A DNA stretch of 64,000 nt from Candidatus Deferrimicrobiaceae bacterium. GTDB taxonomy: Bacteria > Desulfobacterota > Deferrimicrobia > Deferrimicrobiales > Deferrimicrobiaceae. Under the pieces are notes generated by a model. It saw only the letters and a program-made list of their open reading frames with translations. It was not told the DNA's origin and made no database searches. Of the stretch, positions 29,321 to 31,492 are shown in pieces. The position numbers and the translations under genes are program-made. Location of the stretch: NCBI GenBank assembly GCA_963792415.1, contig CAWBVY010000006.1, positions 672,001 through 736,000 on the forward strand. Direction: 5' to 3'. The first letter of the stretch is position 1. Each line of letters starts with the position of its first letter.

Positions 29321-30694
29321 ATGCGGAGAACGCGCTTTTTCCTCGCCGCCGGGGCGGCCCTGATGCTCCTTTTTTCCTCCGGATGTTCCGAAAAACTCTC
29401 CCGACAGACGGGGCTCACCGACGCCGATCTGTTCGCGCGCGGGCAGCAACAGGCGGAGCGGAAAAAGTACGGGGCCGCCGCGGAGGCCTTCCAGGTCCTC
29501 GTCGAGCGGTTCCCCTCCTCTCCCCTGGCGGCGCAGGCGCAGTTCGGTCTCGCTACGAACCGGATGGCCAACAAGGAAGAGATCGAGGCCGAGGTGGCGT
29601 TCGACGACTTCCTGCGCCTCTACCCCGCGGATCCGAAGGTCCCCGACGCCCTGTTCATGAAGGGCAACCTGCTCTCCCGGCAGGCCCTGGCGCCCGGAAG
29701 GGACCAGGGGAAGACGCGGGAGGCGATCAAGACGTACACGCTGTTCCTCGAGAAGGAGCCGGACACCCCCCGCGCCCGGGAAGTCTCCGGGAAGATCCTC
29801 GAGCTGCGAAGCCGGCTGGCCTTGCACGAGGCGACCGTGGTGCAACACTTCCTCACCAGGAAAATGTACGAAAGCGCCGAGGCACGGGCCCGTCGGGCGG
29901 TCGCGACGTACCACGACGTGCCGGTCGCCGCGACGCTCTACGCCCAGCTCGCACAGTCGCTCGAAAAACAGGGGAAGAAGGAGGACGCGGAGATTGTCCG
30001 GAAGACGCTGGCGGAAAACTACCCCGATGCGGCGGGGAAGAAGCCGGTTGCCGTATCGAGCCTCGCCAGAGAGTATAAAACGAGTTCGCCGCGCCGGGCC
30101 CGCCGGGGCCGGTACGAGGTCACCCTCCAGCCGCGCTACGTCGCTTCCAAGGAGATCGGAGCCGATGGAGGCTCGAAGCTCGAGCTCGACCCGGCACTCG
30201 GTTTCGGATTGGGATTCGGCTACAACTTCACCAACAAGCTCGCCCTGCACCTCGACGGGTCATGGACCCGGTCGGACTACAAGGCGAAGATCACCACGAC
30301 CGACAGCGGCGGGATTTCCACCGGCGCGACGACGGTCAGCGGGGTCCTGGACACCGCCACGGTCGCCCTCAACCTGAGCTACTACTTCCTGGACGGTCCG
30401 TTGACCCCCTTCGTCATCGGCGGGGTCGGCTGGGCGTTCGTGGACTCGAACATCCCCTCCGGGCCCCCCGAAGGCGTCTGCTGGTGGGACCCCTGGTACG
30501 GCTACGTCTGCGGTTACTACCAGAACACCTACACCAAGAATTATTTCTCGTACAATCTCGGGATCGGCGCCCGCTGGGACGTGGTCCCCGACTTCTTCCT
30601 GCGCGGCAGCGTGGGGGTGCAGTGGGTCGATCTCGGCCGGGCGGGAACCACGGACTTCTTGGGCGGGCGGCTGGACCTCGGCTACATGTTCTGA
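29321..30694 (+). CDS. bamD: BamD-like TPR lipoprotein fused to a C-terminal outer-membrane beta-barrel
   Basis: Lipobox FSSG-C; FP.SPLA, FLRLYP, RDQ.KTREA, LALHE, AEAR; then amphipathic strands (LGFGYNF, LNLSYYF, PFVIGGVG, LGIGARW) ending LDLGYMF. Confidence 0.85.
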   Translation: MRRTRFFLAAGAALMLLFSSGCSEKLSRQTGLTDADLFARGQQQAERKKYGAAAEAFQVLVERFPSSPLAAQAQFGLATNRMANKEEIEAEVAFDDFLRLYPADPKVPDALFMKGNLLSRQALAPGRDQGKTREAIKTYTLFLEKEPDTPRAREVSGKILELRSRLALHEATVVQHFLTRKMYESAEARARRAVATYHDVPVAATLYAQLAQSLEKQGKKEDAEIVRKTLAENYPDAAGKKPVAVSSLAREYKTSSPRRARRGRYEVTLQPRYVASKEIGADGGSKLELDPALGFGLGFGYNFTNKLALHLDGSWTRSDYKAKITTTDSGGISTGATTVSGVLDTATVALNLSYYFLDGPLTPFVIGGVGWAFVDSNIPSGPPEGVCWWDPWYGYVCGYYQNTYTKNYFSYNLGIGARWDVVPDFFLRGSVGVQWVDLGRAGTTDFLGGRLDLGYMF

Positions 30695-30728
30695 ACGGCC
30701 GGAGGACGTCGTAGGAATGGAGGACACC

Positions 30729-30779
30729 ATGCTTCGAACGAGGAATGTCGCCGTAGTCGTCGGTACCACGATGCGATGA
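30729..30779 (+). CDS. 16-aa small ORF MLRTRNVAVVVGTTMR, coupled to TPR gene
   Basis: GGAGGA RBS at 30719-30724; TGA overlaps next ATG (ATGA). Confidence 0.4.
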   Translation: MLRTRNVAVVVGTTMR

Positions 30780-31492
30780 GCCGGGAACTGGCCGGGCTGA
30801 TCCGGATGGGAAAGAACGCCTTCAGCGAGGCGGACTGCCTGCGGGCCGAGCGGCACCTGCTCGAGGCCCTCGAGGGCGGCGCGAAATACCCCGACATCCA
30901 TTACACGCTGGGCCTGATCGACCACCAGCGGGGGAATTACCGTCGGGCGGTCGAGCGGTTCGGGCAGGCGGTCTCCCTCCACCCCGACTACACCGAGGCG
31001 CTGCTGTCCCTCTCCATCACGCTGAACGACATGGGCCGGTACGACGAGGCGCGGCACGCCTACGACCGCGCCGCGGAGATCCTCTCCCGGGAGGGGGGAT
31101 CGCCCGGGAAGAACCTGTTCCGCGGGCGGATCGCGAACCTGCACAAGGAGCTCGGGGAACTCTACCTCGCGCTGGGCCAGCACGACGACGCGATCCGGGA
31201 ATACCGGCACGCCCTCTCCATCGCGCCGGAATACCCCGACCTTCGGGTTCGACTGGTGACGGCGCTCCGTGAAGCGGGGCGGACGGACGAGGCGCGCAAC
31301 GAGGTGGACGCGTTTCTCGCGGAGATCCCCGAAAACGCGGCGGCCCTCATCCAGAAGGGGATCCTGCACTACCTCGCCGGGGAGAAGGCGCAGGCGCGAC
31401 GCGCGTGGGAAGAGGCGCATTACAAGGAGCCGCTCAACAAGATCGTCCAGGTGTACCTGAACACCATCGACCGGGAAAACCCGCCCGGGTGA
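30776..31492 (+). CDS. Tetratricopeptide repeat protein
   Basis: Repeated TPR patterns (YPDIHYTLG...A...F..A...P; LGELYLALG...AIREY..AL...P). Confidence 0.88.
   Translation: MSRELAGLIRMGKNAFSEADCLRAERHLLEALEGGAKYPDIHYTLGLIDHQRGNYRRAVERFGQAVSLHPDYTEALLSLSITLNDMGRYDEARHAYDRAAEILSREGGSPGKNLFRGRIANLHKELGELYLALGQHDDAIREYRHALSIAPEYPDLRVRLVTALREAGRTDEARNEVDAFLAEIPENAAALIQKGILHYLAGEKAQARRAWEEAHYKEPLNKIVQVYLNTIDRENPPG

What the first reader, a model, noticed from the sequence alone, without database searches (positions are those of the whole stretch)
29321..30694. BamD fused in frame to an outer-membrane beta-barrel
Seen: one uninterrupted 457-aa ORF comprising lipoprotein signal, full BamD-like TPR body (~240 aa), a basic linker with atypical A/T-ending codons (~30030-30110), and a small barrel with a CWWDPWYGYVC loop and C-terminal beta-signal (LDLGYMF). 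The barrel has no start or signal peptide of its own. Known: BamD recognises beta-signals of BAM substrates. Inference: either a doubly anchored BamD carrying its own substrate-like barrel, or a recent chimera from insertion or deletion.
Basis: partly seen in the sequence, partly recalled or inferred. Interest (0 to 1): 0.75.

Follow-up and report, generated by a model that had tools for sequence, protein, structure and literature searches.

The report
BamD lipoprotein fused to membrane barrel
This is a real, conserved gene in which the essential outer-membrane assembly factor BamD carries a small membrane barrel on its tail, a design that arose at least twice in unrelated bacteria and hints at an unrecognised membrane-embedded partner of the assembly machine.

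Summary
Window 29321..30694 (+) is one uninterrupted 457-aa ORF: lipoprotein signal with Cys22, a BamD body above its curated cut-off, a ~30-residue linker of low predicted order, and an 8-stranded OmpA/OmpW-like barrel ending in an aromatic beta-signal. It is the only bamD above cut-off in the genome.

It is not an assembly artefact. The same architecture occurs in 7 of 70 genomes of the bacterial family (3 of 14 genera) and in 54 of 70 related metagenome protein clusters. A DNA contig of another strain bridges the junction without gaps.

Origin: about 730 bp carrying a stand-alone OMP gene without its signal peptide lies in frame between the last bamD codons and the downstream TPR gene. Relatives without it keep a bamD stop overlapping that gene's start.

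The junction is shared and the fused barrels form one clade, but the BamD parts do not (AU p 7e-6). So one cassette spread or was lost repeatedly.

A separate Gammaproteobacteria clade fused BamD to the same OMP family independently (23 uninterrupted loci). Other members carry a BamC-like BamD-binding lasso.

Best reading: a doubly anchored BamD whose barrel is an integral-membrane BAM accessory. This function is inferred, not shown. New variant of a known kind; interest 0.7.

The parts
29321..29386 (+). Lipoprotein signal peptide and lipobox (residues 1-22, ...LLFSSG-C22)
   Evidence: Translation; Cys22 invariant in 20 aligned relatives. The lipobox rule itself is recalled; no predictor was run.
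29420..30019 (+). BamD TPR body (helices from residue 34 to 233)
   Evidence: TIGR03302 151.7 bits over cut-off 81.4. PF13525 100.2 bits. AF2 helices 34-233 with pLDDT 92-98. Foldseek top hits are BamD structures 3qky, 3q5m, 5d0o_D and 3tgo_B, E 1e-14 to 1e-11.
30044..30112 (+). Fusion point (after G-K-K241) and linker to residue 264. It includes a possible relic of the end of the donor's signal peptide (VAVSSLA, 30047-30067) and the basic stretch.
   Evidence: Unfused relatives stop right after GGKK(R). pLDDT 57-65. Linker dN/dS 0.8-4.9 on 24 codons, with length conserved. Secure homology to the stand-alone OMP starts at fused codon ~257-263; the signal-peptide likeness upstream is short and only suggestive. 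GC3 0.60 over codons 241-255.
30113..30691 (+). Eight-stranded outer-membrane beta-barrel (residues 265-457)
   Evidence: PF13505 36.0 bits over cut-off 28.7. AF2 strands 265-280, 286-302, 307-327, 333-355, 361-379, 403-422, 425-436, 444-456 with pLDDT mostly 88-98. Foldseek matches OmpA TM domain, Ail, OmpX, OprG, OmpW. 425 clusters of mostly stand-alone 215-240-aa relatives.
30470..30520 (+). Beta-hairpin in the loop between strands 5 and 6 (residues 384-400) closed by Cys387-Cys397. This is the family signature.
   Evidence: AF2 strands 384-390 and 394-400. C387 0.99, C397 1.00, G394 0.95, P391 0.92 of 145 rows; the most conserved 10-residue block of the barrel. Extracellular position is inferred from the standard topology of 8-stranded barrels with a periplasmic N-terminus.
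30671..30694 (+). C-terminal beta-signal-like end (LDLGYMF) and stop codon
   Evidence: Translation; kept in the fused relatives. The definition of the beta-signal is recalled.
30695..30775 (+). 81-nt spacer brought in with the insertion. It ends in ...gcgATGA, the old bamD-stop/next-gene-start overlap.
   Evidence: Comparison of 7 fused and 13 unfused loci. No terminator-like site on the + strand in the spacer.
30776..31492 (+). Downstream 238-aa TPR gene, the conserved neighbour of bamD
   Evidence: Follows bamD in 30 of 30 loci examined. Start overlaps the bamD stop (ATGA) in unfused loci. Pfam TPR repeats only.

Best explanation
The gene encodes the cell's only BamD. It is an outer-membrane lipoprotein whose TPR body is joined through a flexible ~30-residue linker to an 8-stranded beta-barrel.

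Shown: the fusion arose when a stand-alone OMP gene, lacking most or all of its signal peptide, came to lie in frame at the last codons of bamD. The fused allele has one origin (same junction; fused barrels form one clade). It now sits on three phylogenetically separate bamD backgrounds. The barrel is under purifying selection.

Inferred: the precursor is exported by Sec and lipidated at Cys22. The barrel is folded into the outer membrane by BAM through its own C-terminal beta-signal. The mature protein is then held in the membrane at both ends: lipid at the N-terminus, barrel at the C-terminus. The barrel acts as an integral-membrane anchor or accessory module that sits beside BamA.

Two further observations suggest a functional tie between this barrel family and BamD. 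The same OMP family was fused to BamD independently in Gammaproteobacteria. Other members carry a BamC-like BamD-binding lasso.
For: Architecture:
- One ORF with both domains over curated cut-offs.
- AF2 mean pLDDT 91.7, with a BamD fold plus an 8-stranded barrel.

Only bamD:
- 1 of 7 matches in the genome exceeds the cut-off; the next best scores 46.4 bits against a cut-off of 81.4.
- BamA is present at 599.7 bits.

Conservation:
- 54 of 70 related clusters carry PF13525 and PF13505 together.
- 53 of 53 long relatives of the barrel are BamD fusions.
- 7 of 70 family genomes are fused.
- A DNA contig of another strain (346 nt, 13 differences, no gap) spans 29804-30149, and no indels are listed.

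Origin:
- The order livK / bamD / TPR gene / alaS is kept in 30 of 30 loci, with the barrel between bamD and the TPR gene only in the 7 fused ones.
- The junction lies at the same residue in all of them.
- Stand-alone 230-aa paralogues with a Sec signal are present in G002 and G021. They are sister to the fused barrels with support 100.

Selection:
- dN/dS is 0.31-0.59 for the barrel, 0.22-0.37 for BamD and about 1 or more for the linker.

Spread:
- The BamD tree needs 3 changes of the fused label, and the AU test rejects one clade of the fused BamD parts, p 7e-6.
- The flank tree needs at least 3 changes.
- Between genera, dS is 0.25-0.33 for the barrel against 0.77-0.92 for BamD in the same ORF.

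Recurrence:
- 25 of 80 gammaproteobacterial bamD loci have the barrel directly behind bamD; 23 of these 25 are in one frame without stops.
- The AU test rejects a single clade of the two fused groups, p 7e-95, on a reduced set of 60 rows.

Lasso forms:
- hhalign to E. coli BamC residues 9-71 gives probability 36%, E 3.7e-4.
- NCBIfam BamC gives E 1.3e-5 on a Povalibacter lipoprotein with the same motif.
- Complex prediction of that motif with its own BamD scores 0.73; the best of 3 controls scores 0.02. That mark was reached by 58 of 80 solved complexes and 2 of 110 mismatched pairs. Partner pLDDT is 75 and the runs agree in at least 95% of contacts. A like complex (BamCD, 3tgo) is solved, so the pass may reflect likeness.

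Precedent: BamG is a transmembrane OMP subunit of the Bacteroidota BAM (PMC12611786, passages).
Against: - No data show the full-length protein, its location, or any contact of the barrel with BamA.
- RNA-library contigs do not bridge the junction. One (X20) stops at 30062 with an 18-letter overhang that I read as a relative's linker. Such libraries can also hold DNA.
- Most relatives do without the barrel: 56 of 63 family genomes with a match are unfused, including 23 of 27 in the same genus. The barrel is therefore dispensable for BamD function.
- One of the 7 genome copies (G021) is out of frame from about codon 413. Two metagenome clusters (P0055, P0060) look frameshifted in the barrel part.
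- The barrel's dN/dS is higher than BamD's.
- The low barrel dS is matched by one flank: livK has 0.25-0.46.
- All BamC-lasso matches are below curated cut-offs. Only 1 of 7 lasso-barrel proteins hits Pfam BamC. A PDB profile search found no BamC.
- 72,000 bases of the genome are withheld and could hide another copy.
Confidence: 0.6

Rival explanations
1. Incidental fusion. The barrel keeps the unknown function of its stand-alone family, for example a small channel or surface protein like OmpW/OprG. It merely uses BamD's signal peptide for export after losing its own. The tie to BamD has no role in BAM.
For: The barrel family is overwhelmingly stand-alone: of the 150 best of 425 clusters, only 6 are 279 aa or longer. 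The fused allele is patchy and most relatives lack it. The barrel's dN/dS of 0.31-0.59 is looser than BamD's. The linker is unconstrained in sequence.
Against: The same OMP family was fused to BamD twice independently. All 53 long relatives found are BamD fusions; no other N-terminal partner turned up. Other members carry a motif predicted to bind BamD. G000 has no stand-alone copy at E <= 1e-5, so here the barrel exists only as part of BamD.
Confidence: 0.25
2. The two halves are separated after export, for example by cleavage in the linker near the relic of the donor's signal-peptidase site. The cell would then have a normal BamD and a free barrel.
For: The linker is predicted disordered (pLDDT 57-65) and basic. 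It holds a short stretch resembling the end of the donor's signal peptide.
Against: The relic lacks the hydrophobic core that signal peptidase substrates need (read; the requirement is recalled). The linker sequence is not conserved while its length is, which suits a tether better than a specific cleavage site.
Confidence: 0.08
3. Assembly artefact or decaying pseudogene with no full-length product.
For: G021's copy is out of frame near the 3' end. P0055 and P0060 look frameshifted.
Against: The frame is intact in 6 of 7 genomes, in 53 metagenome clusters of 443-459 aa from several sources, and in 23 gammaproteobacterial loci. A contig from another strain bridges the junction without gaps. dN/dS is below 1. 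It is the only bamD in a genome rated 100% complete.
Confidence: 0.03
4. Autotransporter- or Slam-like device in which the barrel moves the TPR part, or a client, to the cell surface.
For: N-terminal passenger plus C-terminal barrel resembles type V secretion. There is a weak TPR_Slam hit, E 0.0099, 16.7 bits against a cut-off of 35.2.
Against: The barrel has 8 strands and matches OmpA/OmpX/OmpW, not the 12-strand autotransporter or the Slam barrel. The TPR part is a bona fide BamD and the only one in the genome.
Confidence: 0.02

Closest known systems
BamD (YfiO) of the beta-barrel assembly machine (E. coli, Rhodothermus marinus, Neisseria structures)
   Same: Lipoprotein signal, five-TPR body of about 210-240 residues, HMM score above the curated cut-off, best structural matches, sole copy in the genome.
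   Different: Carries a C-terminal 8-stranded outer-membrane barrel on a ~30-residue linker. Canonical BamD ends after the TPR body, as do 56 of 63 relatives with a match in the same family.
Small 8-stranded OMPs (OmpA TM domain, OmpX/Ail, OmpW/OprG); Pfam PF13505 OMP_b-brl
   Same: Fold, size, aromatic C-terminal residue, and stand-alone relatives with Sec signal peptides. A profile of related lasso forms hits OprG (2n6l, E 2e-5).
   Different: No signal peptide of its own here. The family has a nearly invariant disulfide-closed hairpin (C-WWDPWYGY-x-C) between strands 5 and 6. No Pfam or NCBIfam model describes it specifically; only generic or sub-threshold hits were found.
BamG, the transmembrane OMP subunit of the Bacteroidota BAM complex (PMC12611786; abstract and passages read)
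   Same: An integral outer-membrane barrel as a standing part of BAM. This is the only precedent I found.
   Different: BamG is a separate FadL-like protein bound to the rear of BamA, and it is essential. Here the barrel is small, unrelated, covalently joined to BamD and dispensable in close relatives. Association with BamA is not shown.
BamC N-terminal lasso that coils around BamD (PMC13067283, section 3.2 passage; PDB 3tgo)
   Same: Some members of the same barrel family (P0123, P0160, P0178) are lipoproteins. Their first ~90 residues align with BamC residues 9-71. They share a motif with Povalibacter and Steroidobacter lipoproteins, and that motif is predicted to bind their BamD.
   Different: Those proteins attach non-covalently, if at all. 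The window's protein is a direct fusion and has no lasso. All lasso matches are below family cut-offs.
TPR-plus-barrel and lipoprotein-plus-barrel proteins (Slam, PgaA, BcsC, PelB; NalP, TamL): recalled, except BcsC, which appeared as a weak fold match (9b8a), and TamL, seen only as a title in a search listing (PMC4494059)
   Same: A periplasmic TPR or lipidated N-terminal part followed by a C-terminal outer-membrane barrel in one chain.
   Different: Different barrels (12-16 or more strands), different TPR families, and export or secretion roles. None involves BamD.

Membership tests
BamD (TIGR03302 / PF13525) | HMM score above the curated cut-off over the whole TPR body | tested here: met
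   TIGR03302 151.7 bits against 81.4, residues 8-237 on profile positions 3-236 of 239. PF13525 100.2 bits against 25.
BamD (TIGR03302 / PF13525) | Outer-membrane lipoprotein: signal peptide with lipobox Cys | tested here: met
   ...LLFSSG-C22 in the translation. Cys invariant in 20 relatives. No dedicated predictor was run; the lipobox rule is recalled.
BamD (TIGR03302 / PF13525) | All-helical TPR fold matching solved BamD structures | tested here: met
   AF2 helices 34-233. Foldseek hits include 3q5m (TM 0.87 on the target) and 3tgo_B (0.88).
BamD (TIGR03302 / PF13525) | Binds BamA POTRA5 and is needed for OMP assembly | not tested
BamA is present in the genome, and this is the only bamD above cut-off.
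Small OMP beta-barrel (PF13505, OmpA/OmpW-like) | HMM above the gathering score | tested here: met
   36.0 bits against 28.7, residues 285-438. Relatives score 41-67 bits.
Small OMP beta-barrel (PF13505, OmpA/OmpW-like) | Closed antiparallel barrel of 8 strands with a C-terminal aromatic beta-signal | tested here: met
   AF2 gives 8 long strands plus a loop hairpin, pLDDT mostly 88-98. Foldseek matches 1bxw, 1qj9, 2f1v, 2x27. The protein ends ...GYMF.
Small OMP beta-barrel (PF13505, OmpA/OmpW-like) | Own Sec signal peptide | tested here: not met
   Absent in the fused form. Present in the stand-alone paralogues of G002 and G021. Export must rely on BamD's signal.
Surface lipoprotein assembly modulator (Slam) | TPR_Slam domain above cut-off plus a Slam-type barrel | tested here: not met
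   PF24575 16.7 bits against 35.2. No Slam barrel family was hit, and the barrel has 8 strands.
Type V autotransporter | 12-stranded translocator barrel (PF03797) with a passenger | tested here: not met
   No PF03797 hit for the window's protein at E <= 1. 8 strands.
BamC-like lasso proteins (for the related lasso-barrel forms, not the window's protein) | N-terminal lipoprotein segment homologous to the BamD-binding lasso of BamC | tested here: inconclusive
   hhalign probability 36%, E 3.7e-4. PF06804 E 0.005-0.011 and NF008674 E 1.3e-5, all far below cut-offs. Only 1 of 7 lasso-barrel proteins hits PF06804. Complex prediction 0.73 against a best control of 0.02 for a Povalibacter protein with the motif; this may reflect likeness to the solved BamCD complex.

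The most novel reading that the evidence does not exclude
The disulfide-hairpin 8-stranded OMP family is an unrecognised, widespread integral-membrane partner of BamD and so of the BAM machine. Evolution has tied it to BamD at least three ways: covalent fusion in a Deferrimicrobiaceae-like lineage, an independent covalent fusion in Steroidobacteraceae-like Gammaproteobacteria, and a BamC-type lasso grafted onto the barrel in other bacteria. If so, the stand-alone members may also work at BAM, and a transmembrane BAM subunit would not be a peculiarity of the Bacteroidota.
Probability: 0.3. Interest if true: 0.85.

Novelty: new variant of a known kind. Interest (0 to 1): 0.7.

Why it matters
BamD is one of the two essential, universally conserved parts of the machine that builds the Gram-negative outer membrane, and it is a drug target. 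It is known only as a peripheral lipoprotein.

A BamD that is itself an integral membrane protein is a natural experiment on two questions. The first is how BamD must be placed relative to the membrane and BamA. The second is whether a protein can be a client of both the lipoprotein and the barrel pathways.

The recurrence of the fusion, and the lasso-bearing relatives, give a testable 'Rosetta stone' prediction: a common, unnamed family of small OMPs works together with BamD. Cultured Steroidobacter and Povalibacter strains carry the separate parts, so pull-downs are feasible.

The clean contrast between fused and unfused alleles among close relatives also offers a tractable case of domain gain spreading by recombination.

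Tried and rejected
1. Second bamD: none above cut-off. 72 kb of the genome is withheld.
2. Stand-alone barrel in the window's genome: not found at E <= 1e-5 with the whole protein.
3. A specific curated family for the barrel: NCBIfam gives only sub-threshold generic hits, such as TIGR04565 at 18.7 bits against 60. Atlas clusters are generic 'porin/outer membrane protein'.
4. PDB profile search with the lasso-barrel alignment found OprG and other barrels but no BamC at E <= 10.
5. Expression across the junction: the RNA-library contigs laid (X19, X20) leave 29871-30070 or 30071 onward uncovered. Nothing can be concluded from this.
6. Complementarity between the fusion and the lasso-NTF2 lipoprotein in Gammaproteobacteria: the lipoprotein is present in 3 of 3 unfused and 1 of 2 fused genomes, so there is no clean pattern.
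7. Terminator or promoter in the 81-nt spacer: none on the + strand.
8. Signal-peptide relic in the linker: DNA homology to the stand-alone gene is secure only from fused codon ~257-263, with one pair from codon 249. The protein-level likeness of AVSSLAGA to AVSISAGA is too short to count as shown.
9. Foreign origin by composition: barrel GC3 is 0.91, like the neighbouring genes at 0.89-0.92, so there is no signal.
10. Literature: four searches, plus passages of PMC3359395, PMC12611786 and PMC13067283, gave no description of a natural BamD-barrel fusion. Supplements were not open and subscription journals are not covered.
12. Three script calls got no answer. The AU test on the barrels was then run on a reduced set.
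13. The single complex job went to the lasso question.
Full report
**What is there.** Window 29321..30694 on the + strand is a single ATG-started ORF of 457 codons without an internal stop.
- Residues 1-22 are a signal peptide ending in ...LLFSSG-C.
- Residues 8-237 match NCBIfam TIGR03302 (BamD) at 151.7 bits against a cut-off of 81.4.
- Residues 34-223 match Pfam PF13525 at 100.2 bits.
- Residues 285-438 match Pfam PF13505 (OMP_b-brl) at 36.0 bits against 28.7.

An AlphaFold2 model was built on a 95-row alignment (A3). Its mean pLDDT is 91.7 and its pTM is 0.61. It shows:
- TPR helices from residue 34 to 233;
- a short helix at 245-254;
- a low-confidence stretch around 240-264 (pLDDT 57-65);
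- eight long strands at 265-280, 286-302, 307-327, 333-355, 361-379, 403-422, 425-436 and 444-456;
- an extra hairpin (384-390 and 394-400) in the loop between strands 5 and 6.

The pTM says the relative position of the two domains is not fixed by the model. Foldseek against the PDB puts BamD structures first (3qky, 3q5m, 5d0o_D, 3tgo_B; E 1e-14 to 1e-11). For the second half it finds 8-stranded barrels: OmpA TM domain (9fzc, 1bxw), Ail, OmpX, OprG and OmpW. The 'atypical codons' are only a mild local dip: GC3 is 0.60 over codons 241-255 against 0.88 for the gene. The barrel itself (0.91) is like its neighbours (0.89-0.92).

**It is the cell's BamD.** In the genome that holds the window (2.84 Mb, 11 contigs, completeness 100), seven places match TIGR03302 at E <= 0.001. 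Only this ORF passes the cut-off; the next best scores 46.4 bits. BamA is present (599.7 bits), as is a second Omp85 paralogue. Caveat: 72,000 bases of the genome are withheld.

**It is not an artefact.** A search of 5.8 billion clustered proteins gave 70 relatives.
- 53 are 443-459 aa long, 64-96% identical, and carry both PF13525 and PF13505.
- One more (P0069, 484 aa, 31% identical) has the same two domains.
- 16 lack the barrel.

A search with the barrel alone among long proteins returned 53 hits, and all 53 are these BamD fusions. Logan contigs of public runs were laid on the gene. In DNA run X2 a 346-nt contig with 13 differences and no gap spans 29804-30149, that is, the end of BamD, the fusion point, the linker and the start of the barrel. 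An 860-nt contig continues to 30800. No insertions or deletions were listed in any of the four runs. RNA-library contigs cover both halves but do not bridge the junction, so transcription of a single message is not shown.

**How it arose.** I searched 70 genomes (14 genera) of the same family. 63 have a match. In 7 the match runs through both domains: G000, G002, G014 and G021 (4 of 28 in the window's genus), G069 and G070 (2 of 2 in another genus), and G084 (1 of 6 in a third). In G021 the last ~45 codons are in another frame.

In 30 of 30 loci examined, bamD is followed by the same 238-aa TPR gene. livK and alaS flank the pair wherever the stored stretch reaches them. In the unfused loci that I translated (13), bamD ends ...GGKK(R)-stop, and the stop overlaps the ATG of the TPR gene (ATGA). 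In all 7 fused loci the protein continues after G-K-K into linker and barrel. An 81-nt spacer then restores ...ATGA. The junction is at the same residue and the linkers have the same length, so the fusion happened once.

The donor is a stand-alone OMP. G002 and G021 also encode 230-aa paralogues (65-68% identical to the barrel) with an ordinary Sec signal peptide. These are sister to the fused barrels (support 100; the fused barrels are a clade at 98). Homology is secure from about the fourth residue of the mature stand-alone protein (fused codon ~257-263). The likeness of the linker's AVSSLA(G) to the end of the donor's signal peptide is suggestive only.

**How it spread.** On a tree of the BamD parts the fused label needs three changes. 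An AU test rejects the tree in which the seven fused BamD parts are held together (delta lnL 96.5, p 7e-6). The downstream TPR gene also forces at least three changes.

Because the unfused state with the ATGA overlap is also that of the outgroup genera, precise repeated loss is awkward. Movement of the cassette by homologous recombination through the conserved flanks is the simpler account.

Rough Nei-Gojobori estimates fit this. Between genera the barrel has dS 0.25-0.33, while the BamD part of the same ORF has 0.77-0.92. For comparison, the TPR gene has 0.52-0.75 and alaS 0.81-0.85. livK is also low at 0.25-0.46, so this argument is suggestive, not decisive.

**Selection.** dN/dS is 0.22-0.37 for BamD, 0.31-0.59 for the barrel, and 0.8-4.9 for the 24-codon linker. 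This is the pattern of two constrained domains joined by a tether whose length, not sequence, is kept.

**The barrel family.** A full HMMER scan of 1.84 billion representatives with the barrel alone found 425 clusters at E <= 0.001 and 278 at E <= 1e-10. Of the 150 best, nearly all are 215-240-aa stand-alone proteins. Sources name them only 'opacity protein-like surface antigen' or 'outer membrane beta-barrel protein'. Pfam and NCBIfam offer nothing more specific.

The hallmark is the hairpin between strands 5 and 6. Across 145 rows, C387 is kept in 99%, C397 in 100%, G394 in 95% and P391 in 92%. Residues 383-392 are the most conserved block. With a periplasmic N-terminus, which is forced here by the link to BamD, standard topology puts this hairpin on the cell-surface side. 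That is an inference.

**A second, independent fusion.** P0069 and P0126 (484-486 aa) are canonical BamD (PF13525 at 219-221 bits) plus the same barrel family. A scan of one genome per species found 80 related bamD loci in Steroidobacteraceae/Nevskiaceae-like Gammaproteobacteria.
- 25 of the 80 have the barrel directly behind bamD.
- 23 of those 25 are in one frame without stops.
- Cultured Steroidobacter, Peristeroidobacter and Povalibacter are unfused.

On the barrel tree these fusions lie in a separate clade (support 100), among stand-alone proteins and far from the window's clade. An AU test on a reduced set rejects one clade for both fused groups, with delta lnL 253 and p 7e-95. The set had 60 rows: 7 window-type fused, 11 of 23 gammaproteobacterial fused, 36 of 109 stand-alone, and 6 others. 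The group was named after the tree was seen, which weakens the p-value but hardly the conclusion.

**A third kind of tie.** Three clusters of 308-316 aa (P0123, P0160, P0178) are lipoproteins with a ~100-residue N-terminal extension before the barrel. They sit at three places in the barrel tree, one of them next to the gammaproteobacterial fusions. The evidence on the extension is as follows.
- It aligns with residues 9-71 of E. coli BamC (hhalign probability 36%, E 3.7e-4). This is the region a review calls the lasso that coils around BamD (PMC13067283, passage read).
- Steroidobacter gossypii and Povalibacter uvarum encode 209-aa lipoproteins with the same motif followed by an NTF2-like domain.
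- These hit NCBIfam BamC at E 1.3e-5 and Pfam PF06804 at E 0.005-0.011, far below the cut-offs.
- A complex prediction of the Povalibacter motif (residues 29-100) with its own BamD scored 0.73, against 0.02 for the best of three controls. Partner pLDDT was 75 and the runs agreed in at least 95% of contacts. In the tool's calibration that mark was reached by 58 of 80 solved complexes and 2 of 110 mismatched pairs. Because the BamCD complex is solved (3tgo), the pass may show likeness rather than binding.

Results against this reading: only 1 of 7 lasso-barrel proteins hits PF06804, a PDB profile search found no BamC, and I could not test a lasso-barrel protein against its own BamD.

**Mechanism proposed.**
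- Shown: the gene structure, its origin, its conservation and its recurrence.
- Inferred from established knowledge of Sec, Lol and BAM: export through BamD's signal peptide, lipidation at Cys22, and BAM-dependent insertion of the barrel through its own aromatic C-terminus. The mature protein would have a lipid anchor at one end and a barrel at the other, with the TPR body in the periplasm under BamA.
- Speculative: the barrel acts as an integral-membrane accessory of BAM rather than as a passenger with a job of its own.

In favour of an accessory role: two independent fusions to BamD, no other N-terminal partner among the long relatives found, the lasso forms, and the precedent of BamG, a transmembrane OMP subunit of the Bacteroidota BAM (PMC12611786, abstract and passages).

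Against it: most close relatives live without the barrel, some copies are broken, and nothing here shows contact with BamA. Anwari et al. found no BamB, BamC or BamE in delta-proteobacteria (PMC3359395, passage). If that holds for this lineage, BamA and BamD may be the whole machine here, which would make any added part more notable. I did not test this for this genome.

**Novelty.** Databases label these proteins simply as BamD, although their precomputed Pfam strings show both domains. Four literature searches and passages of three papers gave no description of a natural BamD-barrel fusion. Supplements were closed and subscription journals are not covered.

I rate it a new variant of a known kind, with interest 0.7. 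It should surprise specialists in outer-membrane biogenesis, and it comes with a concrete, testable prediction about a large unnamed OMP family.

Noticed in passing
window 30692-30779 and 30776-31492: In unfused relatives the bamD stop overlaps the start of a conserved 238-aa TPR gene (ATGA), which suggests translational coupling. The barrel insertion moved the two 81 nt apart. The TPR protein shows only generic TPR hits and, by eye, no signal peptide.
   Followed up: partly
L011 (G021:C2:334397-338647), about codon 413 of the fused gene: The fused gene of G021 changes frame near its 3' end, so the last two strands and the beta-signal are lost as written. G021 also has an intact stand-alone paralogue. 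This is either a sequencing error or decay. Metagenome clusters P0055 and P0060 look similarly shifted.
   Followed up: partly
G000:C6:459427-462039 (outside the window): A second Omp85-family gene (324 bits to the BamA model, plus a 76-bit N-terminal piece in the same 935-aa open frame) sits beside the main bamA at G000:C5:58405-60594.
   Followed up: no
L125:1174-1800 (-) and L126:1441-2067 (+): Steroidobacter gossypii and Povalibacter uvarum encode 209-aa lipoproteins with a BamC-like N-terminal lasso motif and an NTF2-like C-terminal domain. They may be BamC analogues of that order. The motif is predicted to bind their BamD (0.73 against a best control of 0.02).
   Followed up: partly
window 30478-30511: In all four runs laid, contigs match only this ~33-nt stretch (the codons of the Cys-hairpin) and run on unlike the window on both sides. 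Other organisms' barrels seem to share this stretch even at the DNA level.
   Followed up: no
window 30694-30773: One contig of RNA-library run X19 joins 30694 to 30773, skipping 78 nt of the spacer. This is probably a relative with a shorter spacer (G070 has one), not processing.
   Followed up: no
L023:1312-5135 and L024:642-5192: The stand-alone barrel paralogues of G021 and G002 lie between a ~520-aa lipoprotein with two HKD-like motifs (phospholipase D-like, by eye) and a ~470-aa multi-pass transporter. No family search was run on either neighbour.
   Followed up: no
protein P0035: A 70%-identical fused homologue is labelled 'Verrucomicrobiota bacterium' by its source. Others are labelled Deferrimicrobiaceae or Desulfobacteria. 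This is probably a binning or naming error.
   Followed up: no
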